Source: an uncultured Candidatus Peribacteria bacterium (GTDB lineage: Bacteria; Patescibacteriota; Gracilibacteria; Peribacterales; Peribacteraceae). Taken from it: DNA of 64,000 bases. Both the position numbers and the translations under genes were made by a program. The stretch is taken from positions 316 to 64,315 of the forward strand of contig CAYRGC010000005.1 in NCBI GenBank assembly GCA_964423795.1. The letters are read 5' to 3'. Of the stretch, positions 10,044-60,082 are shown in pieces (position 1 is the stretch's first letter; every line of letters starts with the position of its first letter). Under the pieces are notes generated by a model. The model worked only from the letters and a program-made list of their open reading frames with translations, searched no databases and had not been told where the DNA came from.

Positions 10044-10652
10044 TTATTTCGTTGCGGCCAAGAATCTCTTCTCCACTTCGGGCCACGAAACAATCTGCCA
10101 AAACGCCTTGATGTAATCGGGGCGCTTGTTTTGGTACTTGAGGTAGTACGCGTGCTCCCACACGTCGAGACCGAGGATCGGGGTCTGACCGGCACTGATG
10201 GGGGAATCCTGGTTCGGAAGGTTCACGACTTTCAGTTTCCCGGAATCGACGACGAGCCACGCCCAACCGGACCCGAACTGATTCGTAGCCGCGGCATTGA
10301 AGCTTTCGACGAACCTGTCCCAGCCGCCGAGATCGCTGTCGATCGCTTTCATCAGATCACCCGACGGTTTTCCTCCCGCCTTCGGCCCGATGATCGTCCA
10401 GAAGAGACCGTGGTTGAAGTGCCCACCGCCGTGGTTCCGGACCGCCCCCTTCTTGTCTTCGGGAACCTTGGAGAGGTTCTTCAGGAGCTCCTCGACCGGC
10501 TTCCCTTCCCACTCCGTGCCCGCGATCGCGGTATTGAGCTTATCGACGTACGTCTGATGGTGCTTCGTGTGGTGGATCTCCATCGTCTTGGCGTCGATGT
10601 GGGGCTCGAGCGCATCGTACGGGTAGGGCAGGGGCGGGAGGGTGTGGGCCAT
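10044..10652 (-). CDS. sodA: superoxide dismutase, Fe/Mn family (Mn-type signature)
   Basis: [49 protein letters not shown]-type motif. The GGGHFNH and NQDSP contexts favour the Mn type. The ATG at 10652 is preferred over the track start at 10790, whose extra 46 aa are repeat-derived. Confidence 0.92.
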
Positions 10653-11790
10653 GGCGAAAATGGGGAACTGGTTGCAGTGTACTCCCAAGACGAGCCTATC
10701 GCAGACTGATGACAGGTTTCGGGCATCGAGTGTCAGGATTCCGCTCTCGCAACCCGCAACCCGCAACCGTACACTGTCCCCCATAGCCATCCGCCTGCTG
10801 ACGTCGGCCGCCGACCTCGAGCGCTACGACGCGTGGGTCCAGTCGCACCCTGAGGGGACCCTCTGGCAGAGCCTCGAATGGAAGCGCTGCCAGGAAGCCC
10901 TGGGACGGACGGTACGCATCTACGTCGACGACGAGGCGGGAGACATCCGCGTCTCGGCGCTCGTCGTGATCGACCGGACGACGGGGGGACTTTCCACGTG
11001 GGAAGTGCCACGAGGGCCGCTCGCGGTTGCGGGTGACGAGTTGCGAGTTGCGGGATTGATTGCTGCGATCAAACGGGATGCAGTGAAAGACCGGTGTCTT
11101 TCTTTATATTTTTCACCTCTCGCACCTCTCGAGACCCGACACTCGCAACTCGCAACCTCGTCTCGACGCCACGTCCACCCCGAAGCCACGCGCATCATTG
11201 ATCTTCGCCCAACCGAGGAGGAGATCCTCGCCCAGATGAAGCAGAAAGGCCGGTACAACATTCGTCTGACAGAGAAGAACGGCGTCGCGGTGAAAAACTC
11301 GACCGATATCGATGTCTTCGCCCGTCTCATGGACGAGACGGCCGTCCGCGACGGCTTTCGGCCTTCCGGAGTCCGGAGTTACCGTGCTTTTTTGCAGAAC
11401 GCACCAGGTGCCTTTCTTTTGCTCGCCTACAGCCCCGAGCAAAACGGGAAGGACAATGACGCTCTCAAGCCCATCGCAGGCCTCCTGGGGGCAATCTGGA
11501 GCACGACGGGCATTTATTACTACGGTGCCTCGTCCTATGAGCAGCGTGAGCTCATGGCGCCCTACGCCCTGCAATGGGCCGCCATGCGGCACTGCAAAGC
11601 GGCGGGATGCCTCTCGTACGACCTCTTCGGCGTGGCGCCGGAGGGACAGATCGAGCATCCCTGGGCGGGCGTCAGCGAGTTCAAAGCCAAGTTCGGCGGC
11701 ACGTACGTGCAGTATCCACCGGAGCAGGAGATCGTCCTGCGGCCGGTGATGAAGGCCTTACTACAGATGAAGAGGCGAGTCTTGGGATAG
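10642..11790 (+). CDS. FemAB-family peptidoglycan interpeptide-bridge aminoacyltransferase
   Basis: [60 protein letters not shown]. The track start overlaps the sodA start. The true start is probably a non-ATG codon near 10770-10800, and no in-frame ATG exists there. Confidence 0.75.
10746..10768. repeat. heptamer array cgcaacc x3 (family-B arm)
   Basis: ctcgcaacccgcaacccgcaacc. Complementary arrays lie at 11038-11054, and a same-sense array at 11141-11160, inside the FemAB ORF. Confidence 0.6.
11038..11160. repeat. inverted heptamer arrays inside the FemAB coding sequence
   Basis: gagttgcgagttgcggg (11038-11054) and actcgcaactcgcaacctcg (11141-11160) share 13 nt of perfect complementarity. 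They encode DELRVAG and HSQLATS, flanking a native-looking segment. Confidence 0.6.
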
Positions 11791-21627: not shown

Positions 21628-21925
21628 GGAGGCGGAGGAGGAAAGTGGTCGCTACGGTACCACGATTCGGCATAGACCGCAGGTCGGCTCCCGAACCTCT
21701 TTGCAGCTATTTCTTTCTTTTGTCTATTCCTAGCCACTCCCGAACAGGAGCACCATTTTCTGTGTCGCAAAAGCCCGGAATCTGCCACGCTGGCCGCCCC
21801 CGTTCTTTGGTAACACGGTCTGCCTTCCACGCACCCCACCTCGTCTATGGTGGGTCCGATCGCGCTTTGACGCGAACCGGGCAGCACCTGAGGTTGGGTG
21901 CTGTGGAGGACAAAAGGAGAACCTC

Positions 21926-22240
21926 ATGAATTCCTTGTTTCTTTGCGCCGCCTATCTGGTGGCGCAACCTAATCCGCTCGATACCTTTCCAAAGGTTACC
22001 GGGCCCCCTGAAGTCTCCTGTGAGTTCCGGTACAAGTCGGATAGCACCGATTTCTTGTTCAATCTTCGCATCATCGAGAAAAAAGAAATCTTTCTCGTGA
22101 TCGACAGCATCAACAAGAAGACCGGCGAGATCCGATTTTCGTACCTCTACCACGGGAAAAAAGAAGGAACGCGATGGCTATGGGAGGAGCGACCGCCTAT
22201 CAACGGCATCCGCTTCCCCAGTGCAATCGCGAGACCATGA
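21926..22240 (+). CDS. hypothetical small secreted protein
   Basis: 104 aa in a locally AT-richer region. AAGGAG lies 7 nt before the ATG. The N-terminus is hydrophobic (MNSLFLCAAYLVAQP). Confidence 0.5.
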   Translation: MNSLFLCAAYLVAQPNPLDTFPKVTGPPEVSCEFRYKSDSTDFLFNLRIIEKKEIFLVIDSINKKTGEIRFSYLYHGKKEGTRWLWEERPPINGIRFPSAIARP

Positions 22241-22310: not shown

Positions 22311-23705
22311 CTATGAGCGAACGCTGAGGTGTTCGCGGTTCACTAAAATTTGCTGTCCGATGCCGAAGAGCGTCGAGACGCCCCAGTAGAGCGCGACCGC
22401 GGCGGGAGACTGGAAGGCGAAGAAGCCAATCATAAGCGGAAGGACGTAGAGCATCATCTTCTGTTGCATGTCCTGGGCTGAGGGTTCGTCCTTGGCCTTG
22501 GCGCCGACGTCGATGATCGCGTCCTTCTTCTTGGTCTTCCGTTTCTGAATTGCGAACGTGAGCTTCATCTGGAGGAACTGGAGGACGACGAGCGTGATCG
22601 GGAAGATGAACACCTCCGGCTTCACGAGATCGAGACCGAGGAAATGCGTGTCGAAGTGCCACGAAAGATTCTGGTACGGACCGTAGAAGAGATGCTGCGA
22701 GAGCGTGAGCGCGGAGCCGTCGCGGATCGTGGTGTAGAGACCGATCAGAATCGGGAACTGGAGGAGCATCGGGAGGCAGCTGCTGAACGGATTGATCTTG
22801 TGCTCCTTCCAGAGCTTCATCGTCTCCTCCTGGACGCGCTTCTGATCGTTCGGATACTTCTTCTGGAGCTCCTGGAGCTTGGGCTGGAGCATCTGCATCT
22901 TCTTCTGCCCCTCGAGCGCGTGCTGTGTCGGGAGGAAGAGCAGAAGCTTGATCGCGATCGTGAGGAGGATGATCGCGAGACCGAGGTTATGACCGGGCGT
23001 GAAGGACGCGATGAGGACGAGCAGGTTCAAGAGGGGAGCCGCGATGAACGTGCGATAGAGCTTGGTGAAGGCGCCGGGTTCGCTGATGGTGAAGCGCGCC
23101 ACGGACGCGGACGAGACAGAAGCACCCGAGCCGGTCGCGGCTACCGCGCCGCTCCCGGCGCCGGGCAGGCGTGCCTCAAACGCACCGACGCGCTCGAAAA
23201 GGGAGTACTTCCAAGGAGCCAGGCTCACCTGCACGCTGTCGCCAGGTTGCAGCGCGGGAATGGACTCGCACGGAACGATCGTCTCGGACGATGTGACACG
23301 TACGAACTTTTCCCAAGACTCCGGCATGTTTGCAAGGAAAAGATCGACAGGGGGTTCAGGACAACGCGAGGGAAGCGAGAGCGTCTTCCCCGTCTCCGTC
23401 ACCGCGAGCGCACGGCATTCTTGTTCCGACTTGTCCGATCCGAACTTGCGACCGATGGCGCAGAGCTTGGACAGGACATAGCCCCACGCGCCCTTGGATT
23501 CGCTCATCTCGGGAATGTTCTGCAGGACAAGTATCGGGTGGTGCCCGATCGTGATGCTCTGCGAAGCGGCCCGCAGATGCAAGCCCGGCACCGGCTTCTC
23601 GGCGTTCTGCTGGTTCCCGAAGAAAAGCTGCGTCCCGAAGTAGACGGCCAGGAAGATCAGGAAGAACTGGAGGAGGTTACTCTGCTTTTTCTCGGCGGGT
23701 GCCAT
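22311..23705 (-). CDS. yidC: membrane protein insertase YidC
   Basis: 464 aa. GLAIILLTIAIKLLLFPL-type helix, QKKMQMLQPKLQELQKKY, INPFSSCLPMLLQFPILIGLY. Confidence 0.92.
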   Translation of the reverse strand: MAPAEKKQSNLLQFFLIFLAVYFGTQLFFGNQQNAEKPVPGLHLRAASQSITIGHHPILVLQNIPEMSESKGAWGYVLSKLCAIGRKFGSDKSEQECRALAVTETGKTLSLPSRCPEPPVDLFLANMPESWEKFVRVTSSETIVPCESIPALQPGDSVQVSLAPWKYSLFERVGAFEARLPGAGSGAVAATGSGASVSSASVARFTISEPGAFTKLYRTFIAAPLLNLLVLIASFTPGHNLGLAIILLTIAIKLLLFLPTQHALEGQKKMQMLQPKLQELQKKYPNDQKRVQEETMKLWKEHKINPFSSCLPMLLQFPILIGLYTTIRDGSALTLSQHLFYGPYQNLSWHFDTHFLGLDLVKPEVFIFPITLVVLQFLQMKLTFAIQKRKTKKKDAIIDVGAKAKDEPSAQDMQQKMMLYVLPLMIGFFAFQSPAAVALYWGVSTLFGIGQQILVNREHLSVRS

Positions 23706-24069
23706 GGGTCGGGGACGGAAGTCGGAAGAACGACCGGAGGTCGTCTTGCAGCTCGGGGAACGGAGCCCAAAGACTAGAAGACCTGGGGGCGAGTAACAAC
23801 TGGATGGCGGGGATTCGGGCGTCGGTCTCCCGGAGCAGGAGGCGGAGGGCCTCGCGGCAACGGCGGCGCATGCGGTTGCGCTTGACGGCAGATTTGTCGA
23901 GCTTGGCCGACGCCACGGTACCCACGTAGACGGCGTCCGAGCGATCCGCCCCCGCGCGGCGCGGATGGCCGGGAAGGGAACGGATGGTCATGTGCTTGCC
24001 CTTCCACACCCTCCCCTTGCGCTGGAGATGATCGCAGATTTTCCGGCCCTGCAAACGAAGTAGCAGCAT
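23677..24069 (-). CDS. rnpA: ribonuclease P protein component
   Basis: 130 aa, basic. It carries the RNR-motif context KSAVKRNRMRRRCREALR and overlaps the yidC start by 29 nt. No rpmH lies upstream. Confidence 0.8.
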   Translation of the reverse strand: MLLLRLQGRKICDHLQRKGRVWKGKHMTIRSLPGHPRRAGADRSDAVYVGTVASAKLDKSAVKRNRMRRRCREALRLLLRETDARIPAIQLLLAPRSSSLWAPFPELQDDLRSFFRLPSPTHGTRREKAE

Positions 24070-24098
24070 TGGGAGGATGATAGAGGTGTTGCGAGAAG

Positions 24099-24620
24099 GT
24101 TACGAGCGACGAGCGACGGGAGGTTCCGCCAAAGACAAGAACTGAATTTTTGGCATGCGATTAAGTAAAACTCTAATGTCACGGATGCATATTCACTGGA
24201 GCCGTTTTCCGAATCTGCATGTACTACTACGGTAATCACATGACCACTACTCACCAATTCGAAGATCTCGATGTCTGGAAAGAGGCGCGCATCCTCGTAC
24301 GGGCAATTCGCGCGATATGTAAACAGCCAAAAGTTGCGAAAGATTATGCTTTCGTTGATCAAATCACTCGTGCGGCGCGCTCGATTTCTTCCAATATCGC
24401 AGAAGGATCCGAATCATCGAGCAATGAACAATTCAGTCTCTTCCTCAATTATTCGAAACGATCCTGCGGAGAGGTGCGCTCGCATTTGTATGACGCCTTA
24501 GATGAGCAGTATCTGTCCCAGGAACAGTTTGAAAACATGAAAAACCAAACTATCGTGATTGGACGCAGGCTCGGCTCTTTCATCAAATATCTACACTCGC
24601 ATTCCCGTCGCCCGTCGCTC
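24099..24620. mobile_element. IVS-like insertion: family-B inverted heptamer arms enclosing a four-helix-bundle gene
   Basis: The left arm is gttacgagcgacgagcgacggga (24099-24122). The right arm is tcccgtcgcccgtcgctc (24603-24620), whose reverse complement gagcgacgggcgacggga matches the left arm at 17 of 18 positions. The interior is markedly AT-richer than its surroundings. Confidence 0.5.
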
Positions 24621-24644
24621 AAAACCCATCACCATCTTTCCTAA
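24240..24644 (+). CDS. four-helix-bundle protein (23S rRNA intervening-sequence protein / Avd-like family)
   Basis: MTTTHQFEDLDVWKEARILVRAIRAI..QITRAARSISSNIAEGS..FLNYSKRSCGEVRSHLY is the characteristic pattern of this family. The track start at 24219 adds 7 aa. The last ~14 codons are encoded by the right repeat arm. Confidence 0.8.
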   Translation: MTTTHQFEDLDVWKEARILVRAIRAICKQPKVAKDYAFVDQITRAARSISSNIAEGSESSSNEQFSLFLNYSKRSCGEVRSHLYDALDEQYLSQEQFENMKNQTIVIGRRLGSFIKYLHSHSRRPSLKTHHHLS

Positions 24645-24688: not shown

Positions 24689-24985
24689 ATGGCTTCTCTC
24701 TCCCCAGACCTTGTCCGGCACATCGCGAAGCTCGCGCGACTCGATCTCTCCGAGGCCGAGGTGGAGAAGTTCAGCAAGGAACTCACCCAGATCCTCGGGT
24801 ACGTGGACATGCTCGGCGAAGTGGACACGAAGAACGTGGCCCCGACGGCGCAGGTGACCGGCCAGACGAACGTGCTGCGCCCCGACGAGGTGCGGCAGGG
24901 CGGCGCGAATCCCGACGACCTGCTCGCCCAAAGCCCGCTGCCGGTGGCGGACCACCAGATCGTCACGCCGTCCGCGCACGGTTGA
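24689..24985 (+). CDS. gatC: Asp/Glu-tRNA amidotransferase subunit C
   Basis: VRHIAKLARLDLSEAEVEKFSKELTQILGYVDML..VDT..V is a typical GatC. Confidence 0.9.
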   Translation: MASLSPDLVRHIAKLARLDLSEAEVEKFSKELTQILGYVDMLGEVDTKNVAPTAQVTGQTNVLRPDEVRQGGANPDDLLAQSPLPVADHQIVTPSAHG

Positions 24986-35027: not shown

Positions 35028-35085
35028 CGGGGATTATCGTAGCAGACGGAACGACGAGGATCGGAAATGATAGCCGGATATCGAC

Positions 35086-35153
35086 GATGCCAAGGAATCC
35101 GAGGATATCGAGGATCCTCGGAATCTTCGGTTTCTTCGGAATCCTCGGTATCC
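35086..35153. repeat. family-B periodic-arm hairpin (9-nt unit)
   Basis: gatgccaagg aatccgagg atatcgagg atcctcgg aatcttcgg tttcttcgg aatcctcgg tatcc. The centre cgaggatcctcg is a perfect palindrome. Confidence 0.65.
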
Positions 35154-37127: not shown

Positions 37128-37781
37128 ATGCCGACCCGTTCCCGCGCCGTCTGGTTCCTCCCCGGTCTTGTGGCCGGCGTGCTGCTCGGTGCCTCGCTGC
37201 CCAAGAAGACGCCCTCCGTCGAGCCCCAACCGAGCGCGCTCGGATCGCTTATCGAGAAGCGTGTGCAAGAGCAGCAGGTGGAACCCGTCCGTTGCGGAGC
37301 GGAAGTCGATACGGAGGGATGGAAGACCTTCCGCGATGAGGGGCTCGCCGTGGAATTCCGGTACCCCCCGAGTTACGAACTCGCCGTCGACGGCGACACG
37401 ATGACGCTCTCTCCCTCCGACGGGAGTCCCGACGGAAAGATCGTCCTGGAAAAATTCCGCGGAGTGCCCCAGCGGGAAGTGACGAGGGACTGGCAGATGG
37501 CCTCCTGGAAAGTGGCCGATCGCAAGACCTTCGCCATGACGAGCGGCTACTTCAACGACGACGCGGGAAAACTGTGGTCGACCTACCTCTTCATCCGCGA
37601 TTTCCCCCTGGGCAACGGCGGCAGCTCATTCCCCATGGTCCGCGCGACCATCGCCTCGCCGATCACCGCCCAGGAATACGCCGCCGCCAGGCGGGCGGGA
37701 AACGTCGACTACGAGAGCCTGCTCACCCTCCCGGAACAGATCCTCTCCACGTTCCGGTTCCTCCAAAACGAGGAGCTGTGA
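37128..37781 (+). CDS. hypothetical membrane-anchored or secreted protein
   Basis: MPTRSRAVWFLPGLVAGVLLGASLP signal-anchor. I recognise no family. The track start is a GTG at 37095. Confidence 0.5.
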   Translation: MPTRSRAVWFLPGLVAGVLLGASLPKKTPSVEPQPSALGSLIEKRVQEQQVEPVRCGAEVDTEGWKTFRDEGLAVEFRYPPSYELAVDGDTMTLSPSDGSPDGKIVLEKFRGVPQREVTRDWQMASWKVADRKTFAMTSGYFNDDAGKLWSTYLFIRDFPLGNGGSSFPMVRATIASPITAQEYAAARRAGNVDYESLLTLPEQILSTFRFLQNEEL

Positions 37782-38148
37782 CGCCGGGGGAGCGAGGGTG
37801 TCGCCAAGAAGCGACAAACCAACCGGACTTGAGAAGGAGAAACAACCCCTTTTAGCGATTCTGAAGCATTTTCGGGGTGTGATCGAGTCCGGAAGATGGA
37901 ATGCGTTCTTGACGCCGTGTCAGGATCGATTGACTAGTTTTCACGACGTTTTCCCGGGAAAGAAGATGTGTCTCCGGGGGGATCGGAGTACCATCGCCCG
38001 AGTCTCAACGGCGCGTCAGGACTGGTACGTTTCTTCCTATCGCTTGCTCAGGGAGGCCTACTCTCCCCGGACCGAGGTCCGTGGATGCGGCCACCCACCT
38101 GGTTTCCAGGGACAAGCGTCCCCGTCCAACGGCCGTTTGGACGTGAGG

Positions 38149-38228
38149 AAGTTACGGGTCACGAGTTACGGGTTTCGGGAACTTGTGGATTCTCGTAACT
38201 CGTAACCCGCAACTCGTAACTCACGGGT
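38149..38228. repeat. family-B periodic-arm hairpin (heptamer agttacg / cgtaact)
   Basis: The left arm is gaagttacgggtcacgagttacgggtttcggg. The loop is aacttgtggattc. The right arm is tcgtaactcgtaacccgcaactcgtaactcacggg. Confidence 0.7.
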
Positions 38229-46809: not shown

Positions 46810-48750
46810 GTGAAGATCCTCGAACATCGCTGGTATTGGGCCCTGGCGGCTCTTCTCTCGATCCCCCTCGCCGCGTACCTGGCGTTCGGCCGCTCGCTCA
46901 TCCTCGGCTTCGCGCCGATCGACGACATCCTGCTTGTGACCCAGAACCTCGCGGCGCACGGCCTTTCCTGGGAGCACCTCAAGCTCGCCTTCACGACGTA
47001 CGATCCGGAGCTCTATATTCCGCTCACGCTCGCGAGCTTCCAGGTCGATTTCTCGCTCGGGGGACTGATGCCGCACCAGTTCCACCTGACGAACCTGCTC
47101 CTGCACGCGTGCAACGGCGTCCTCGCGGCGCTGCTCCTCCGCAAGCTCACGGGTTCCCGGTGGGGGAGCGTGCTCGGCGGACTGCTCTTCGCTGTCCATC
47201 CGCTGCAGACGGAAGCGGTCGTGTGGATCGCGGGACGCAAGGATCTGCTCTTCGCGCTCTTCGCGCTGCTGTCGCTCCTCTTCTGGACGGATCGCGAGCG
47301 CGGATGGTGGCGGACCGCACTCTCCATCGGATTCCTCGCGCTGGCGCTCCTTGCGAAGGTGACGGCCGTGATCGTGCTTCCGCTGTGGGTGCTGATCGAT
47401 TGGTTTGTCGGAAGGCAGAAAAGGGAGAAGACGGAGAAAAGGGGAAAAAGGTGGTGGCAGCAAAAAATCAGCGACCTTTCGTCCCTTTTTTCCCTTTCAA
47501 ACCTTTTCTCCCTCTCGTCTCTCGCACCCCTCAGCGGCCTCGTACTCTGTACCATCTTCGGCCTCGTCTCTCTCGGCGGCAAGGAGCGCGTGCTCGGGTC
47601 GCAGCCGGTCTTCGAGATGCTCCTCACGGGCTTCCGGAGCGTATGGTTTTACGTCACGCAATTCGTCGCGCCGGTCTCCCTCTCGATCTCGCACGAGTGG
47701 GCGGGCGGCTTCTCGCCGACGCATCCCGCGCTCTGGGCGGGAACGCTGCTAACCGCCGGAGCGACGTGGCAGGCGTGGAGATGCCGCCAGCGCGCGCCGT
47801 GGGTGACGTTCGGCTGGCTCTTCTTCCTCATCGCGCTCGCGCCGACGTTTCTGGGCTCGCGGAAGGGCGGCATGCTGCTCTTCGCGGTCGACCGGTACGC
47901 GTACGTGCCGCTCCTCGGCCTCGTCTTCCTCGCCGCGGAGACGGGAAGGCGCGCGGCGGAGCGATGGAGCGCCGGGAAGATCGCGGCAGGAGCCGGACTC
48001 GCCGTCGTCGGGATAGCGATCCTACTGTCCCGCGCGCAGACGCGCACGTGGGACTCGCCCGAGAAGATCTTCGAGCAGGCGCTGCGCGTGACGCCCTCCT
48101 CGGTGGGATCCCGCGTGAGCCTCGCGAGCGTCATCCTCCAGAAAGGCGATACTGAGAAGGCGTTCGTCGTGCTCAAGGAAGGGCTCAAGTACGGGAAGGA
48201 CAAGGAGCTGAACCTTCTCGCCGGGCAGATCTACGCCAAGGCGGGGGACACCGCCTCGGCGCGCGAGCAGTTCGCGACCGTTCTCAACGAGGATCCGAAG
48301 AATCCCGACGCGCTCTTCGCCCTGGGCTCGCTCGACGAGCAGGAGCAGGATCACGACGCGGCGCTGGAGGAGTACCGCAAGGCCGTCGACGCCGATCCGT
48401 CGTACGTCTCCGCGCGTAACGGCATCGCGCGCATCAGCCTGCAACGGAACGACGACGCGACGGCGGAAGCGGAACTCGCGGCGGCGCTCCACTGGAACCC
48501 GAGCACCGGCGAAAGCCACCGCCTGCTCGGGCTGCATCTCGAGAAGAAGAAGGACTACGCCGGCGCGGAGGATCATTTGCGCAAGGCGATCGATTCGCGC
48601 GGAAAGTCCGTGGACCTGCTCCTCGCCCTCGCGGGCGTGCTCCACGCGCAAGGGAAAGACGCCGAGGCGAAGACAACGCTCGAGGAGGTGCTGCGGGCGG
48701 ATCCGCGGAACGGGGAGGCGAAGGAAATGATGAATTCCCTCCACCCCTAA
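46810..48750 (+). CDS. TMTC-like membrane protein: polytopic GT-C-type N-terminal domain plus C-terminal TPR repeats
   Basis: 646 aa with a GTG start. The N-terminal FAPIDDILLV and HLTNLLLHACNGVL are typical of DUF1736/PMT_2-TPR proteins. At least four TPR-like repeats lie in the last ~230 aa. The last 4 codons and the stop lie inside a family-C repeat. Confidence 0.8.
   Translation: MKILEHRWYWALAALLSIPLAAYLAFGRSLILGFAPIDDILLVTQNLAAHGLSWEHLKLAFTTYDPELYIPLTLASFQVDFSLGGLMPHQFHLTNLLLHACNGVLAALLLRKLTGSRWGSVLGGLLFAVHPLQTEAVVWIAGRKDLLFALFALLSLLFWTDRERGWWRTALSIGFLALALLAKVTAVIVLPLWVLIDWFVGRQKREKTEKRGKRWWQQKISDLSSLFSLSNLFSLSSLAPLSGLVLCTIFGLVSLGGKERVLGSQPVFEMLLTGFRSVWFYVTQFVAPVSLSISHEWAGGFSPTHPALWAGTLLTAGATWQAWRCRQRAPWVTFGWLFFLIALAPTFLGSRKGGMLLFAVDRYAYVPLLGLVFLAAETGRRAAERWSAGKIAAGAGLAVVGIAILLSRAQTRTWDSPEKIFEQALRVTPSSVGSRVSLASVILQKGDTEKAFVVLKEGLKYGKDKELNLLAGQIYAKAGDTASAREQFATVLNEDPKNPDALFALGSLDEQEQDHDAALEEYRKAVDADPSYVSARNGIARISLQRNDDATAEAELAAALHWNPSTGESHRLLGLHLEKKKDYAGAEDHLRKAIDSRGKSVDLLLALAGVLHAQGKDAEAKTTLEEVLRADPRNGEAKEMMNSLHP
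47418..47527. repeat. family-B periodic-arm palindrome (9-nt unit) inside the TMTC-like coding sequence
   Basis: The left arm is gaaaagggagaagacggagaaaaggggaaaaagg. The right arm is cctttcgtc ccttttttc cctttcaaa ccttttctc cctctcgtc tctcgcac. Complementary blocks include ggagaaaagg/ccttttctcc. The element is translated in frame as ..KREKTEKRGKRWWQQKISDLSSLFSLSNLFSLSSLAP.. Confidence 0.65.
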
Positions 48751-52576: not shown

Positions 52577-52649
52577 GCAACCGGGATTCCAGGCAACCAA
52601 GCAACCAGGAGATCATCCTGGTTACGTGGTTTCTCGGTTGCCTGGTTGC
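52577..52649. repeat. family-B periodic-arm hairpin (7-nt unit) between convergent khpB and dnaJ
   Basis: The left arm is gcaaccgggattccaggcaaccaagcaaccagga. The loop is gatca. The right arm is tcctggttacgtggtttctcggttgcctggttgc. Confidence 0.75.
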
Positions 52650-54861: not shown

Positions 54862-55446
54862 ATGATGATGCGTCCATACCAATACTCACTCCTCGGCCTC
54901 GCCGCCCTGCTCCTCCCGGGACTCTCCGCGGCGCAGATCTACCTCGGTCCCGAGGACGTGCTCTACATGAACGCGAAGCAGACGCAGCGCTTGAACCCTC
55001 GCAGCGCCGAGAAGAGCGTGATGGAGCGTGAGGCGAAGATCCAAAGCCAGCAGAGCAGCGCCCGCCCGACCGTGAAGGAGTGGTGGGACGAGTCCGAGAC
55101 CGCCTCTCCGACGGTCCAGGACGTGGTGACCCCCCACCTGAGCGATCAGACCTCCTCCGTTTCCACGCACCAAGCGGCCGACTCCTCCTCGTCCGAGCCG
55201 TCGCTCCATCCCGGCGCGAACGTGAAGGGCTCGAGCACGGATCGTATCCAGCAGCGCCTCCTTGAGCGCATCCAAAACGGCCAGTACCGCGTGGTGCCGG
55301 TCGAACTCCCGGAAGTCGTCCGGTACTACAGGGACGGCTACCTCGTGCATTCCGGGCCGGAGAGCGCGCTCGTCGTGCTCGCGATGGTTCCCGCCGCGTA
55401 CTTCGTCATCCGCAAGGCGCGGAAGATGGAGAAGTTCGTGCGCTGA
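54862..55446 (+). CDS. hypothetical protein with signal peptide and C-terminal TM anchor
   Basis: MMMRPYQYSLLGLAALLLPGLSAAQ.. ..ALVVLAMVPAAYFVIRKARK. TATACT (54856-54861) directly precedes the three ATGs, so the third (54868) is the likely leaderless start. Confidence 0.55.
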   Translation: MMMRPYQYSLLGLAALLLPGLSAAQIYLGPEDVLYMNAKQTQRLNPRSAEKSVMEREAKIQSQQSSARPTVKEWWDESETASPTVQDVVTPHLSDQTSSVSTHQAADSSSSEPSLHPGANVKGSSTDRIQQRLLERIQNGQYRVVPVELPEVVRYYRDGYLVHSGPESALVVLAMVPAAYFVIRKARKMEKFVR

Positions 55447-55450
55447 GGTT

Positions 55451-55565
55451 TCAAAGGGGACAAAGGGTACAAGGGGCACAAAGGTAGTTTCGCTTTTCGC
55501 GTATGTATGGATTCCTTTGTCCCTATTTGTACCCTTTGACACCTTTGCAACCTTTGTACCTTTCC
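55451..55565. repeat. family-B periodic-arm hairpin (8-9-nt unit)
   Basis: The left arm is caaaggggacaaagggtacaaggggcacaaagg. The loop is about 29 nt. The right arm is cctttgtcc ctatttgta ccctttgac acctttgca acctttgta cctttccc. Confidence 0.75.
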
Positions 55566-55687
55566 CTTGCGTTCCGCCAGACCAGAGAACGCCGGGAAAG
55601 CCTCGGCAAAGCCGATAACCGAGCGTTGCCAGACAAAAACCCGACGACCTTCCCCGCGTGAACGCCGGGTCTGTTAAGGTGCGCTCG

Positions 55688-57349
55688 ATGTCCTCACCCG
55701 ACCTCTCCCTCACCGGCAAGCGTTGGCACGGGCGCCTCGGGACGACCCGGCATCCCGACATCGCGTCCCTCACGGCGGCGCTCAGGGCCCACCGCGGGGT
55801 CGATGCCGGTACCGGCGGGCCGTTTCCCATCGCGACCCTGCCGGACGCCGCGAAGGCGATCGACCGCGTGACGCGCGCGGTGAAGGACGGAGAGCGCATC
55901 GCCGTCTTCGGCGACTACGACTGCGACGGCATCACCTCGACGGCCCTTCTCGCCCGCATGCTGCGCCGCAGGGGCGCGAAACCGTTGCTCCGCCTGCCCC
56001 ATCGCCAGCGCGAGGGCTACGGCCTCAAGATGCCGATCGTGGAGGAGATGGCGCGCGAAGGGGTGACGCTGCTGCTTACCGCGGATACCGGCGGTTCCTG
56101 CGTGGCGGAGATCGCGGAGGCGGCGCGGCGGGGGATCGACGTGATCGTCCTCGATCACCACCACCTGCCGTCGACGGGCCTGCCGCCCGCGTACGCGCTC
56201 TTGCACCCCGCGCTCCTGCCCGTCCCGCTCGCTTCGCCGCCAGCGGCCGCCGGCGTGACGTGGGCGTTCGTGGACGCCGTCGAACGCGCGGAAGGCTCCG
56301 CCGACTGGGAGGACCGCGACACGGATCTCGCGCTCGCCGCCCTGGGCACGGTGGCGGACCTCGTGGAGCTCAAAGACGGAAACCGCTTGCTCACGCAGGA
56401 GGGGCTCCGCGCCCTCGGAAGGCTGGAACGGGGGGCGCTCGCCTTCCTGAAGATGCAGGCGGGCATCGAGGGAACGCCCAAGAGCAGCGACATCGCGTTC
56501 CGCCTGGCGCCGCGCATCAACGCCGCCGGGCGCATGGCGGACCCCGCCGTGGCCCTCGAGGCGCTGCTCGGCAGCACCGAGGCGGCGCTCCAACTCGAAG
56601 ACTGGAACCGCGAACGGCAGTCGCTCGTCTCCGTCCTCGCGGAGGACGCGACGCGCTCCGCGGGCGACGACGCCATGATCTGCCTGATGGACCCGCGCTA
56701 CTCGCCGGGCGTCTGCGGGCTCATCGCGGGAAAGGTAACCGACAAGTTCGGCCGCCCCTCGCTCGCCGCCTCCGCGGACCCGGACGGACGCTCCACCGCG
56801 TCGCTGCGCAGCGTGCCGGGATACAACGTGACGGAAGGACTCGAGCGCGTCTCGGACCTGCTGACCTCCTTCGGCGGGCACGCCATGGCCGCGGGCTGCA
56901 CGTTCGAGTCGCGGAACTTCCCGGAGCTTAGCCGGCGGCTCGCCGAGGACGTCCGCGCCCGCATGGACGCGTCGGCACTGGTGCCGAGCCTCGCGTACGA
57001 CGCGGAACTGCGCCTGCCGCACGTCACGCTCGACCTGTGCCGCGCGCTCTCCGATCTCGAACCCTTCGGGCAGGGCAATCCCGAGCCGCGCTTCGTCCTC
57101 CACGGCGTACGCCTCACCGACGCGCGGCGCGTGGGACGCGACGCGACGCATCTCCAGGCGCGCGCGGGCAGCTGCAAGCTCATCGGCTTCGGGCTCGGGC
57201 ACCTCGCGCAGGAGACGGCGATCCCTCTCGACCTGCTCGTGCAGGTGGGCATCGATACGTGGCAGGGCGCCATGCGGCCGCAGATGTATCTGCAGGACCT
57301 GCGGGTGCCGGTCGCTCAGGAAGTAGGAGGAAAGAGGAGAGAGCTTTAA
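55688..57349 (+). CDS. recJ: single-stranded-DNA-specific exonuclease RecJ
   Basis: DHH motifs IAVFGDYDCDGITSTAL, LLLTADTG, VIVLDHHH, and GGHAMAAG (DHHA1). Confidence 0.9.
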   Translation: MSSPDLSLTGKRWHGRLGTTRHPDIASLTAALRAHRGVDAGTGGPFPIATLPDAAKAIDRVTRAVKDGERIAVFGDYDCDGITSTALLARMLRRRGAKPLLRLPHRQREGYGLKMPIVEEMAREGVTLLLTADTGGSCVAEIAEAARRGIDVIVLDHHHLPSTGLPPAYALLHPALLPVPLASPPAAAGVTWAFVDAVERAEGSADWEDRDTDLALAALGTVADLVELKDGNRLLTQEGLRALGRLERGALAFLKMQAGIEGTPKSSDIAFRLAPRINAAGRMADPAVALEALLGSTEAALQLEDWNRERQSLVSVLAEDATRSAGDDAMICLMDPRYSPGVCGLIAGKVTDKFGRPSLAASADPDGRSTASLRSVPGYNVTEGLERVSDLLTSFGGHAMAAGCTFESRNFPELSRRLAEDVRARMDASALVPSLAYDAELRLPHVTLDLCRALSDLEPFGQGNPEPRFVLHGVRLTDARRVGRDATHLQARAGSCKLIGFGLGHLAQETAIPLDLLVQVGIDTWQGAMRPQMYLQDLRVPVAQEVGGKRREL

Positions 57350-57392
57350 GCCTGGACAAGCTAAAAAGCTTCCCAAGCTCTTTCCTCTTTCC
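57326..57392. repeat. imperfect hairpin spanning the recJ stop (between convergent recJ and XRE genes)
   Basis: ggaggaaagaggagagagctt (57326-57346) pairs with aagctctttcctctttcc (57375-57392). Confidence 0.6.
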
Positions 57393-57402
57393 TTCGCTCT
57401 TT

Positions 57403-57897: not shown

Positions 57898-58380
57898 ATG
57901 GGATCGTCTCCATTCCACGGGATCTTCGCGGCACTCGCGCAAGGACAGGAAGCGCAAGACGCGGCGCCTGCGCGCTCGCAGGCGAGCCAGCCCGCGCGCG
58001 ACGATTCCGCGGCGGCGCGCTCGTCGTCGCCCTCTTCGTCGTCGACGCCGCAGGTCGGACGCGTGGCGGTCGACATCTTCGAGCAGGACGACTACTTCAT
58101 CATCAAGGCGCCGATCGCCGGCGTGCGCATGAGCGACATCGACCTCGAGGTGAACGACAACGTTCTCACGATCCGCGGCCAGCGGAAGCAGACCGATGCT
58201 GCCGCGGACGGACAGTACTTCCTCCGCGAGTGCTTCTGGGGCTCCTTCGCGCGCAGCATCACGCTCCCGATGAGCATCGACCCGCGCAAGATCAAAGCCA
58301 CGTTCAACAAGGACTGCGTGCTGAAGATCCTCGTGCCCAAGGAAGAGCGCGTGAAGATCGTGAAAATCAGCGAGGCGTGA
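57898..58380 (+). CDS. Hsp20/alpha-crystallin family small heat-shock protein
   Basis: The alpha-crystallin domain VDIFEQDDYFIIKAPIAGVRMSDIDLEVNDNVLTIRGQR..FARSITLP..KATFNKDCVLKILVPK follows a Ser/Ala-rich N-terminal region. Confidence 0.9.
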   Translation: MGSSPFHGIFAALAQGQEAQDAAPARSQASQPARDDSAAARSSSPSSSSTPQVGRVAVDIFEQDDYFIIKAPIAGVRMSDIDLEVNDNVLTIRGQRKQTDAAADGQYFLRECFWGSFARSITLPMSIDPRKIKATFNKDCVLKILVPKEERVKIVKISEA

Positions 58381-58383
58381 CGA

Positions 58384-58450
58384 GGTAACCAGGTAACCAA
58401 GAAACCAGGTAACCAGGAAAAATCCTGGTTACCTGGTTACGGGTTGCTGG
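58384..58450. repeat. family-B periodic-arm hairpin (8-nt unit ggtaacca)
   Basis: The left arm is ggtaacca ggtaacca agaaacca ggtaacca gga. The loop is aaaa. The right arm is tcctggttacctggttacgggttgctgg. Confidence 0.8.
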
Positions 58451-59841: not shown

Positions 59842-60082
59842 TCACTGAGTGTCACCCTGAGCGGAGTCGAGGGACGACACGGGCACGCCCGAGGGATAGA
59901 AGGAGGCGGTACTCGACCTTGGCTAAGTGTCACCCTGAGCGGAGTCGAAGGGCGACACCGGCACCCCTGAGGGGTACAAGGAGGCGGTACTCGACCTTGG
60001 CTAAGTGTCACCCTGAGCGGAGTCGAAGGGCGACACCGGCACCCCTGAGGGGTACAAGGAGGCGGTCCTCGACTTGGGCTGA
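59842..60082. repeat. three tandem units (85, 78, 78 nt), each a family-A hairpin plus a copy of the last 16 galU codons and a stop
   Basis: The units span 59842-59926, 59927-60004 and 60005-60082. Each contains gtgtcaccctgagcggagtcga(a/g)gg.gac followed by gac ac. ggc ac. cc. gag gg. ta. aag gag gcg gt. ctc gac .t. ggc t.a. Confidence 0.9.

What the first reader, a model, noticed from the sequence alone, without database searches (positions are those of the whole stretch)
24099..24644. A four-helix-bundle (23S-IVS / Avd-type) gene sits in the loop of one periodic-arm hairpin, where rpmH would normally be
Arms gttacgagcgacgagcgacggga (24099-24122) and tcccgtcgcccgtcgctc (24603-24620) are inverted heptamer arrays matching at 17 of 18 positions. 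They enclose an AT-rich segment encoding a typical four-helix-bundle protein (QFEDLDVWKEA..SNIAEGS..). The last ~14 codons of the ORF are supplied by the right arm.

This protein family was first found inside the stem-loop intervening sequences of 23S rRNA. To my knowledge it also includes the Avd accessory proteins of diversity-generating retroelements. Finding it inside the same hairpin architecture that is ORF-less at a dozen other loci suggests those hairpins could be empty versions of an IVS-like element.

The insertion lies immediately upstream of rnpA-yidC, and no rpmH is present. I translated 24070-24240 on the minus strand and found no L34-like ORF.
Basis: partly seen in the sequence, partly recalled or inferred. 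Interest (0 to 1): 0.62.

Follow-up and report, generated by a model that had tools for sequence, protein, structure and literature searches.

The report
Hairpin-bracketed four-helix-bundle gene cassette
A small gene of unknown function, from the family first found inside ribosomal-RNA intervening sequences, sits here between rnpA and gatC, bracketed by two mirror-image arrays of 7-base units; the same gene-plus-arms package turned up around about 86% of its relatives sampled across many bacterial phyla.

Summary
Window 24240-24644 (+) encodes a PF05635/TIGR02436 four-helix-bundle (4HB) protein. It lies in a 47% G+C island, bracketed by inverted heptamer arrays at 24098-24121 and 24603-24626.

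The architecture is general. Of 87 related 4HB genes from many phyla, none in rRNA, 75 have flanking inverted arrays of 7-9-nt units. Most units start GTT or GTC. Arm type tracks protein similarity, even across phyla, so arms and gene travel together.

These cassettes sit tightly between genes and usually point the same way as the upstream gene. ORF-less hairpins with the same units occur in the same genomes, including this window.

A syntenic relative (L002) keeps the cassette. Its ORF is under purifying selection, its arms are 92-96% identical where neutral sites are about 47% identical, and each arm has gained one extra heptamer.

The rpmH remark is not supported. The divergent rnpA-gatC pair without rpmH is ancestral in this clade, and three relatives carry ORF-less periodic hairpins at the same site.

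Best reading: an rRNA-IVS-type cassette living outside rRNA. Its periodic arms probably pair and are probably bound by the pentameric 4HB protein. That mechanism is inferred, not shown. It is not a DGR.

The parts
24098..24121 (.). Left arm: GGTTACGA GCGACGA GCGACGG GA, a period-7 array
   Evidence: 23 of 24 bases are identical in L002, which also has one extra heptamer.
24603..24626 (.). Right arm: TCCCGTCGCCCGTCGCTCAAAACC, the inverted complement of the left arm. It also encodes residues about 122-129 of the ORF tail.
   Evidence: 22 of 24 bases are identical in L002, which also has one extra heptamer.
24240..24644 (+). Four-helix-bundle protein gene (134 aa; PF05635 / TIGR02436). The domain covers residues 8-118 and the C-terminal tail is disordered.
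   Evidence: Against L002, dN is 0.106 and synonymous sites are saturated.
24122..24239 (+). Leader between the left arm and the start codon. The first ~30 nt are 79% conserved with L002; the rest is at neutral level (48%).
24071..24097 (.). Predicted imperfect outer extension of the stem, pairing with 24627-24641
   Evidence: RNA folds of both strands. 86% identical in L002. Pairing is predicted only.
24627..24641 (.). Partner of the predicted outer stem extension; it ends at the ORF stop codon
38150..38222 (.). ORF-less hairpin of the same unit class (GTTACGG GTCACGA GTTACGG ... / ...CGTAAC x4) and the same arm polarity as the cassette
11024..11157 (.). ORF-less inverted arrays of the same unit class (GTTGCGG GTGACGA GTTGCGA... 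/ ...CTCGCAAC), lying inside a FemAB-family ORF
10746..10769 (.). Third array of the same unit class (CGCAACC x3), upstream of the FemAB-family gene

Best explanation
This is a ~0.53-kb cassette of the same kind as the ORF-carrying intervening sequences of 23S rRNA, but it lives between protein-coding genes. It consists of a 4HB gene of the Xcc0516/BT_0352 type plus two inverted arrays of short units.

Shown:
- Arms and gene are inherited and transferred together.
- The cassette occupies the rnpA-gatC spacer, which is short in most relatives.
- It has been kept since the split from L002, with purifying selection on both the ORF and the arms, and the two arms change in step.

Inferred:
- The arms pair, most likely in the transcript, and loop the cassette out of whatever it is inserted in. 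This is what a 23S IVS stem does before RNase III cuts it.
- The 4HB protein, expected to be a pentameric ring like its solved relatives, binds the periodic arms roughly one unit per protomer. It would recognise the invariant GTY triplet and/or bases flipped out at the periodically mismatched positions, as the Avd pentamer does with its RNA stem-loop.
- ORF-less hairpins with the same units would then be non-autonomous partners or remnants.

How the cassette moves is unknown.
For: - Family and fold.
- General architecture: 75 of 87 4HB genes have flanking inverted arms above the 95th percentile of the null, and 64 of 87 exceed the null maximum. Arm periods are 7 (45 loci), 8 (18) and 9 (11).
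- Conserved polarity: the upstream arm reads GTT/GTC-N4-6 in 56 of 75 loci.
- Coupled arms: unit numbers in the left and right arms correlate (rho 0.64).
- Arms and protein co-vary: pairs sharing arm 6-mers have 61% protein identity against 44% for other pairs, with 0 of 2000 permutations reaching this. L012 (Verrucomicrobiaceae) and L022 (Pirellula) share arms and 84% protein identity.
- Packing: the upstream gene is co-oriented in 60 of 68 loci. The left arm starts a median of 3 nt after the upstream ORF, and the right arm ends a median of 14 nt before the next ORF.
- None of 96 loci carries the 23S sarcin-ricin motif.
- Window versus L002: same site, a matching extra heptamer in both arms, arms 92-96% identical against 47% at third codon positions, and dN 0.106 with saturated dS.
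- Short spacers in relatives: 75-149 nt in five loci.
- The arms pair in the MFE and centroid folds of both strands.
- Mismatches between arms are phase-specific: 0-4% at the GTY positions and 25-27% at phases 3 and 6.
- Precedents: the Coxiella IVS stem with heptamers, cut by RNase III (PMC4990558). The Avd pentamer binds an RNA stem-loop through flipped-out bases held between protomers (bioRxiv 10.1101/2023.10.23.563531).
Against: - No RNA data exist for this organism; only DNA runs were found. Pairing, processing and expression are therefore untested.
- Mismatch types between arms show no excess of sense-strand G-U-compatible changes (69 against 87 for the antisense strand). There is no positive sign of selection on a sense RNA stem.
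- A universally conserved GTY triplet argues for sequence recognition rather than mere pairing. It fits a DNA-level role equally well.
- No transposase, no target-site duplication and no mobility mechanism were found.
- The window's own context (upstream gene divergent) is the minority arrangement, seen in 5 of 65 loci.
- The survey covers only relatives 32-57% identical to this protein (plus the syntenic L002 at 82%), not the whole PF05635 family (7431 clusters).
- Protein-arm binding rests on analogy with Avd, which shares only 13% identity.
Confidence: 0.55

Rival explanations
1. A DNA-level mobile element. The arrays are terminal inverted repeats made of iterated binding sites, and the 4HB protein binds them on DNA (single- or double-stranded) to recruit or direct a host recombination or replication function. 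[quoted passage not shown]
For: - The GTY triplet is invariant in sequence and is conserved across phyla.
- There is no strand bias in wobble-compatible mismatches.
- Gene and arms are shared across phyla at 84% protein identity.
- ORF-less partners with the same units, resembling MITEs, occur in the same genomes.
- The island has low G+C.
Against: - No catalytic domain is recognisable in the 134-aa protein.
- No target-site duplication is visible at the junctions.
- A 7-9-bp period does not match the helical repeat of duplex DNA.
- The strong co-orientation with upstream genes and the tight stop-to-arm spacing point to a link with transcription or translation.
- The characterised relatives act on RNA.
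Confidence: 0.22
2. The periodic hairpins are made and kept by the host genome, through slippage plus templated correction of quasi-palindromes, or as functional intercistronic structures like cyanobacterial STRR hairpins. The 4HB gene would be a passenger that lands in their loops.
For: - Three relatives have ORF-less periodic hairpins, with unrelated units, at the orthologous rnpA-gatC spacer.
- The window contains several ORF-less periodic hairpins with other units and with either polarity.
- STRR 7-bp hairpins between genes are known in cyanobacteria (PMC2670836).
- Heptamer arrays occur even inside a FemAB-family ORF.
Against: - Arm type follows the 4HB protein and not the host, including across phyla.
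- Polarity and the GTY start are conserved around 4HB genes.
- 86% of 4HB genes are bracketed by such arms, while strictly defined ORF-less periodic hairpins number only about 22 in 585 kb of the same loci.
Confidence: 0.13
3. An accessory (Avd) protein of a diversity-generating retroelement.
For: Fold similarity to Bordetella phage Avd and to Avd in the DGR ribonucleoprotein (4DWL, 8UBE, 8UB7; TM up to 0.85 on the target).
Against: - The immediate neighbours are rnpA, yidC, gatC and gatA.
- No reverse transcriptase was found among 12 further neighbouring ORFs scanned between about 17.5 and 33 kb.
- No template/variable repeat pair appears among the local direct repeats.
- Avd is not reached by sequence search at E<=0.01.
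- The closest solved relatives are Xcc0516 and BT_0352, which the PDB entries do not describe as DGR components.
Confidence: 0.03
4. A chance inverted repeat around an ordinary small gene.
For: The 18-mer alone, with up to 3 mismatches, is not very rare: 0.5 matches are expected per window.
Against: - The arm score exceeds every one of the 153 null placements.
- The arms are conserved with a matched indel in L002.
- The same architecture is found in 75 of 87 relatives.
Confidence: 0.01

Closest known systems
ORF-carrying intervening sequences of 23S rRNA (Coxiella burnetii helix-45 IVS; also Leptospira and Haemophilus)
   Same: - Size is about 0.45-0.55 kb.
- Terminal inverted repeats form a long stem that encloses an ORF of the same protein family.
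- Tandem heptamers in the 5' arm vary in number between strains (PMC4990558). Here the window and L002 differ by one heptamer per arm.
   Different: - This cassette is not in rRNA. It lies between rnpA and gatC, there is no rRNA in the window, and none of 96 related loci is in 23S rRNA.
- The Coxiella heptamer GACAGAT does not read GTY on the sense strand of the upstream arm.
- RNase III excision is shown for Coxiella and untested here.
- The Coxiella ORF is described as decaying and probably not translated. This ORF is under purifying selection.
Xcc0516 (PDB 2GSC) and BT_0352 (PDB 2RLD), 'S23 ribosomal protein family' four-helix bundles
   Same: Both are sequence and fold relatives: E 1.8e-17 and 5.6e-11, TM 0.77/0.91 and 0.71/0.87. 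Xcc0516 is a homopentamer of four-helix bundles (cited in PMC4990558).
   Different: No function is known for either. The oligomeric state of the window protein was not tested.
Avd of diversity-generating retroelements (PDB 4DWL; DGR ribonucleoprotein 8UB7/8UBE)
   Same: It has the same fold. Avd is a positively charged pentamer that binds an RNA stem-loop through flipped-out bases held between protomers. This suggests how a periodic stem could be read.
   Different: Identity is only 13% and Avd is not reached by sequence search. There is no reverse transcriptase or TR/VR pair nearby.
Cyanobacterial STRR (short tandemly repeated repetitive) heptamer hairpins
   Same: They are arrays of 7-bp units that can form hairpins between genes such as hupS and hupL, with unknown function (PMC2670836). 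STRR sequences also occur inside the RNase P RNA gene (Vioque 1997, known here only from a reference list).
   Different: In the papers I could read they are described without any cargo gene and without a link to 4HB proteins. The organisms here are not cyanobacteria.
MITE / autonomous-element pairs and integron gene cassettes
   Same: - Short elements bounded by inverted repeats.
- ORF-less copies share ends with an ORF-bearing copy.
- A promoterless-looking small ORF is packed co-directionally behind a host gene.
   Different: There is no transposase or integrase, no target-site duplication, and no attC-type site. The ends are periodic arrays rather than unique terminal repeats.

Membership tests
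PF05635 / TIGR02436 four-helix-bundle (23S rRNA IVS protein) family | Profile score above the curated cut-off | tested here: met
   PF05635 scores 103.2 bits (cut-off 33.8). TIGR02436 scores 98.3 bits (cut-off 24).
PF05635 / TIGR02436 four-helix-bundle (23S rRNA IVS protein) family | Up-down four-helix-bundle fold like Xcc0516 and BT_0352 | tested here: met
   The AF2 model has pLDDT 90.8 and four long helices. TM is 0.77/0.91 to 2GSC and 0.71/0.87 to 2RLD.
PF05635 / TIGR02436 four-helix-bundle (23S rRNA IVS protein) family | Conserved motif GxxRxxxSxxxNxxE (as given in PMC3936711) | tested here: met
   R44-x3-S48-x3-N52-x2-E55 is present and invariant in alignment A2. The leading G is Q41 throughout this subfamily.
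PF05635 / TIGR02436 four-helix-bundle (23S rRNA IVS protein) family | Homopentameric ring | not testable with these tools
   Only a monomer was modelled.
23S rRNA intervening sequence (IVS) | Inserted in a 23S rRNA helix (helix 25 or 45) | tested here: not met
   The cassette lies between rnpA and gatC. Rfam finds only two tRNAs in the window. No sarcin-ricin motif occurs in any of 96 loci.
23S rRNA intervening sequence (IVS) | Terminal inverted repeats forming a long stem around the ORF | tested here: met
23S rRNA intervening sequence (IVS) | Excision from the precursor by RNase III | not testable with these tools
   No RNA runs hold this sequence.
DGR accessory protein Avd | Encoded next to a DGR reverse transcriptase and a template/variable repeat pair | tested here: not met
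   The four flanking genes and 12 further neighbouring ORFs scanned between about 17.5 and 33 kb include no reverse transcriptase; 5 of the 12 had no Pfam match and smaller ORFs were not scanned. No long direct repeat pair is present locally.
DGR accessory protein Avd | Sequence or fold similarity to bAvd | tested here: inconclusive
   Similarity is at fold level only: 4DWL TM 0.69/0.85 at 13% identity. A profile search of the PDB does not reach it.
TIR transposon / MITE | Terminal inverted repeats | tested here: met
TIR transposon / MITE | Target-site duplication at the junctions | tested here: not met
   The flanks ...GCGAGAAG|arm and arm|CATCACCA share no direct repeat. This was judged by eye.
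TIR transposon / MITE | A cognate transposase, in cis or in trans | tested here: not met
   The only ORF is the 4HB protein, which has no nuclease, recombinase or defence-family match. The rest of the genome is unavailable.
STRR-type periodic hairpins | Tandem ~7-nt units in inverted arrays able to form an intergenic hairpin | tested here: met
   Compare PMC2670836.

The most novel reading that the evidence does not exclude
PF05635 four-helix-bundle genes, together with inverted arrays of GTY-N4-6 units, form a pan-bacterial class of autonomous hairpin cassette that I could not find described. In this reading a pentameric ring protein reads a periodic nucleic-acid array one unit per protomer. 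ORF-less periodic hairpins (STRR-type) are its non-autonomous derivatives. The classical ORF-carrying rRNA intervening sequences are simply the copies that happened to land in rRNA.
Probability: 0.35. Interest if true: 0.85.

Novelty: new variant of a known kind. Interest (0 to 1): 0.72.

Why it matters
PF05635 is a very large family of unknown function: 7431 clusters at 50% identity match this protein. Its members are scattered through operons, including cas loci (PMC3936711), and it includes the DGR accessory protein fold.

If the gene and its periodic arms are one unit, four things follow:
- The family gets a concrete, testable ligand, namely its own arm arrays.
- The origin of ORF-carrying rRNA intervening sequences is explained.
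- There is a candidate source for heptamer-repeat hairpins, which have been known since 1990 without a function.
- Annotation pipelines could recognise a common class of small insertion.

For this window specifically, it shows that the low-G+C island between rnpA and gatC is a long-retained cassette and not a displaced rpmH locus.

Tried and rejected
- rpmH displacement. tblastn with two L34 sequences found nothing in the window or in relatives. rnpA and gatC are divergent neighbours without rpmH in 8 related loci. Rejected.
- DGR. No reverse transcriptase was found among the neighbouring ORFs scanned. Rejected.
- Defence system or phage gene. There were no PADLOC hits and only one weak PHROG hit. 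Only 3 relatives were found in 2.9 million viral contigs, and 2 of those carry periodic arms.
- Promoter and terminator scan of the element. Nothing rose above the shuffled expectation.
- Known RNA families. None was found in the region.
- RNA-seq. Only DNA runs hold the window. Laying their contigs on the region showed no variant lacking the cassette. A try for RNA runs of a Chitinophaga-labelled relative (L063) gave only partial matches of unknown kind and was not pursued.
- Strand of a putative RNA stem. Counts of wobble-compatible mismatches were 69 for the sense strand and 87 for the antisense strand, which is inconclusive. The antisense strand of the window element folds somewhat better (z -3.2 against -1.95), which is not decisive.
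- Literature. Nine full-text searches found no description of 4HB genes bracketed by periodic inverted arrays outside rRNA. Ralph & McClelland 1993/1994 and Vioque 1997 are not held, so I could not read them.
- Counting error. The count of ORF-less hairpins (26) included four runs of N. The corrected figure is about 22.
Full report
**1. What is in the window**

Between rnpA (23677-24069, minus strand; PF00825) and gatC (24689-24985, plus strand; PF02686) lies a 619-nt spacer. yidC follows rnpA and gatA follows gatC. G+C falls to 45-47% inside the spacer, against 60-71% around it.

The spacer holds one real ORF, 24240-24644 on the plus strand. It matches PF05635 (23S_rRNA_IVP) at E 1.1e-29 over the whole model and TIGR02436 'four helix bundle protein' at E 2.9e-28. 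The start at 24240 fits the family alignment.

An AlphaFold2 model built on 20 relatives has mean pLDDT 90.8 and four long helices. Its best structural matches are Xcc0516 (2GSC; TM 0.77 on the query, 0.91 on the target) and BT_0352 (2RLD). Next come Bordetella phage Avd and Avd in the DGR ribonucleoprotein, at 13-14% identity. By sequence only 2GSC and 2RLD are reached. The protein is therefore a true member of the IVS-protein family and an Avd relative at fold level only.

**2. The arms**

The inverted pair extends to 24 nt: 24098-24121 GGTTACGAGCGACGAGCGACGGGA and 24603-24626 TCCCGTCGCCCGTCGCTCAAAACC. The arms are 88% complementary and 481 nt apart. Both are period-7 arrays.

I compared the 220 nt upstream of the gene with the reverse complement of the 220 nt downstream by local alignment. 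The window scores 33. The same geometry placed at 153 other positions in related loci gave a median of 18, a 99th percentile of 26.5 and a maximum of 28.

The right arm and the 18 nt after it supply the last 14 codons, including the stop. That tail lies outside the domain, varies between relatives and is modelled with low confidence. The arms pair in the minimum-energy and centroid folds of both strands. A weaker outer extension is also predicted, 24071-24097 with 24627-24641.

**3. The same insertion in a relative**

A JGI metagenome contig (L002) has the same gene order. Its proteins are 79-86% identical for YidC, RnpA and GatC, and its 4HB protein is 82% identical.

Between the two lineages, third codon positions of the 4HB gene are 47% identical and most of the leader is 48% identical. 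This is close to saturation. dN is 0.106, about the same as for gatC (0.100). The protein has therefore been kept under purifying selection for a long time.

Apart from one indel each, the arms are 23/24 and 22/24 identical. L002 has one extra heptamer in the left arm (GCAACGA) and one extra in the right arm (TCGCTCA). Arms conserved far above the neutral level, and changing length together, mean they are functional and coupled to each other.

**4. Is it an insertion, and was rpmH displaced?**

I fetched eleven metagenome loci that encode YidC relatives (43-62% identity).
- In L087, L088, L093, L095 and L096, rnpA and gatC are divergent neighbours separated by only 75-149 nt.
- In L089 and in L090/L091, the spacer is about 500 nt and holds unrelated small ORFs.

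No L34-like sequence appears in the window or in any of these loci at E<0.05. The rnpA-gatC pairing without rpmH is therefore the ancestral state of this clade. The 4HB cassette is an addition to a short spacer, and nothing was displaced.

The cassette (529 nt) plus 28 nt and 62 nt of flank accounts for the whole window spacer.

In three of the short-spacer relatives the spacer itself is an ORF-less hairpin with periodic arms, each with different units:
- L088: about AAGAATN.
- L095: a 9-mer, about GAGGAAACC.
- L096: about GGGATAA / GGGGTAA.

**5. The architecture is general**

A scan of one genome per species with a profile of the family returned 80 loci from Peribacteria, Verrucomicrobiota, Planctomycetota, Acidobacteriota, Chloroflexota, Bacteroidota, Nitrospirota, Desulfobacterota, Omnitrophota and others. 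With three further contexts from metagenomes, 87 non-redundant 4HB genes could be tested.
- 75 have flanking inverted arms above the null 95th percentile, and 64 exceed the null maximum.
- The arms are periodic, with period 7 in 45 loci, 8 in 18 and 9 in 11.
- The element spans 434-713 nt, with a median of 519.
- Each arm has a median of 3.6 units. Left and right unit numbers correlate (rho 0.64, p 8e-10).
- The unit differs between loci, but in 56 of 75 loci the upstream arm reads GTT or GTC followed by 4-6 variable bases. The opposite polarity is seen in only 10 loci.
- Mismatches between the two arms are phase-specific: 0-4% at the G, T and Y positions and 25-27% at phases 3 and 6.
- None of the 96 loci contains the 23S sarcin-ricin motif, so all these copies are outside rRNA.
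- Two of the three relatives found in viral contigs also have such arms.

**6. Arms and gene travel together**

Pairs of loci that share at least 30% of their arm 6-mers have a mean protein identity of 61%. All other pairs average 44%. None of 2000 label permutations reached this difference.

The pairs include cross-phylum cases. L012 (Verrucomicrobiaceae) and L022 (Pirellula) share GTTCTTG-type arms and 84% protein identity. This argues against the idea that each host makes the arms locally and that the gene is a passenger.

**7. Where the cassettes sit**

The nearest upstream gene is co-oriented with the 4HB gene in 60 of 68 loci, and the downstream gene in 54 of 71. The left arm starts a median of 3 nt after the end of the upstream ORF. 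The right arm ends a median of 14 nt before the next ORF. The ORF calls behind these figures are crude, but random calls would give a 50:50 split.

The cassettes are thus wedged into operons or placed directly behind stop codons. This agrees with earlier reports of these genes interspersed in cas operons (PMC3936711). The window's own context, with a divergent upstream gene, is the minority arrangement (5 of 65).

**8. ORF-less partners**

In the window, arrays of three units matching GYBRCGR give 10 matches on both strands, grouped at about four places, against 0.4 expected from shuffles:
- the cassette's left arm;
- a tight hairpin at 38150-38222;
- three arrays in and just before a FemAB-family gene (10746-10769, 11024-11054, 11135-11157).

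The arms of a Peribacteria cassette elsewhere (L006, AGTTGCGGGTGTCGAGTTGCGAG) are close to the 11024 array.

In L012 and L022, ORF-less hairpins 1.4-3 kb from the cassette use the same units as that cassette. L012 also has an extra proximal arm just before the start codon, which allows alternative pairings.

Across all loci, strictly defined periodic hairpins outside the cassettes number about 22 in 585 kb, against none in shuffled sequence.

Other periodic hairpins in the window have different units or the opposite polarity (35076-35153, 47422-47522, 52589-52645, 55446-55570, 57328-57393, 58376-58449). The statement 'all are empty cassettes' therefore goes beyond the evidence.

**9. How it most likely works**

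Shown: the unit of inheritance is gene plus arms; both are under selection; the arms co-vary in length; the cassettes are packed co-directionally behind genes.

Inferred from the closest characterised systems:
- In Coxiella the same kind of element sits in 23S rRNA. Its terminal repeats form a 28-bp stem that RNase III cuts. The 5' arm carries tandem heptamers whose number varies between strains (PMC4990558).
- In the DGR ribonucleoprotein, the Avd pentamer holds an RNA stem-loop by taking flipped-out bases into the crevices between protomers. The same residues from different protomers are used each time (bioRxiv 10.1101/2023.10.23.563531).

A stem with invariant GUY/RAC triplets and mismatches at fixed phases is the sort of ligand a ring of identical subunits could read, about one unit per protomer. 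My preferred model is that the arms pair in the transcript and loop the cassette out of its host RNA, which keeps the insertion harmless. The 4HB ring would bind that periodic stem, or one arm of it.

The weak points are as follows:
- There are no RNA data.
- There is no strand bias in wobble-compatible mismatches (69 against 87).
- Nothing indicates how the element moves.
- The conserved GTY triplet fits a DNA-level role equally well, which is the main rival.

**10. Comparison with what is known, and novelty**

The protein family, the rRNA IVS and cyanobacterial heptamer (STRR) hairpins between genes (PMC2670836) are all known.

I could not find the following described in nine full-text searches:
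- that the IVS-type package of periodic inverted arms plus a 4HB gene is the normal state of this gene family outside rRNA, across phyla;
- that it has a conserved unit polarity;
- that arms and protein co-vary;
- that ORF-less partners with the same units occur alongside.

Some key older papers were not readable, so this claim of novelty is provisional.

I file the feature as a new variant of a known kind. It fails the defining location test for a 23S IVS and the context test for a DGR Avd, while matching the IVS in anatomy.

The organism is probably a Peribacteria-like member of the candidate phyla radiation. This rests only on the nearest 4HB relatives and is not established.

Noticed in passing
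window 10642-11790 (arrays at 10746-10769, 11024-11054, 11135-11157): A FemAB-family ORF (PF02388, E 5e-41) carries two inverted heptamer arrays inside its reading frame. They flank an ~80-nt stretch that reads like ordinary FemAB sequence. A third array lies just upstream of the gene. This suggests periodic arrays of this unit class can sit in coding sequence.
   Followed up: partly
window 59848-60077: A tandem repeat of a 78-nt unit: 3.0 copies, 94% matching, TRF score 397. It lies between predicted genes.
   Followed up: no
L089:3139-3639 and L090:3099-3627 (the L091 copy looks the same): The rnpA-gatC spacer of two other relatives holds unrelated ~500-nt insertions. One has a ~100-aa ORF on the opposite strand. 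The other encodes a small hydrophobic protein that looks like a pilin (judged by eye). The spacer seems to be an insertion hotspot.
   Followed up: no
window and L002, L086-L096: No ribosomal protein L34 gene lies next to rnpA in any of these loci, and none is found anywhere in the 64-kb window, so rpmH must lie elsewhere in these genomes.
   Followed up: partly
L055:2963-3417 and L055:5930-6369: Two 4HB cassettes lie 3 kb apart in one Terriglobia genome and use different units. One has GTTCCGA x4. The other has about 16 copies of AGTGCTG/AGTCCTG in its left arm.
   Followed up: partly
L012:2880-3412: This cassette has an extra inverted arm between the left arm and the start codon, in the order [A]-45 nt-[rcA]-ORF-[rcA]. 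The left arm could therefore pair with either of two partners.
   Followed up: no
window 58376-58449, 55446-55570, 52589-52645, 57328-57393, 35076-35153: Further ORF-less periodic hairpins have other units (8- and 9-mers). They fill whole intergenic spacers, and two begin exactly at a stop codon. Several have the opposite arm polarity to the 4HB cassettes. The 58424 arm resembles the arms of a Peribacteraceae cassette (L067, CTGGTTGCTGGTTACTGG).
   Followed up: partly
literature: The Beggiatoaceae/cyanobacterial TAACTGA direct repeats (PMC4679880) read GTTATCA on the other strand. The three classical cyanobacterial STRR heptamers, as I recall them (CCCCAGT, TTGGTCA, CAACAGT), can each be rotated to GTC-N4. 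They may belong to the same GTY-N4 unit class.
   Followed up: no
literature (PMC10910872, PMC3936711): 23S_rRNA_IVP is listed as a CRISPR-associated domain in two surveys. That association may simply reflect these cassettes inserting into cas operons, or their periodic arms lying near arrays.
   Followed up: no
window 37574-38150 and 21645-22240: These stretches have low third-position G+C and no Pfam match. They lie next to a periodic hairpin and to yidC respectively, and may be non-coding or foreign.
   Followed up: no
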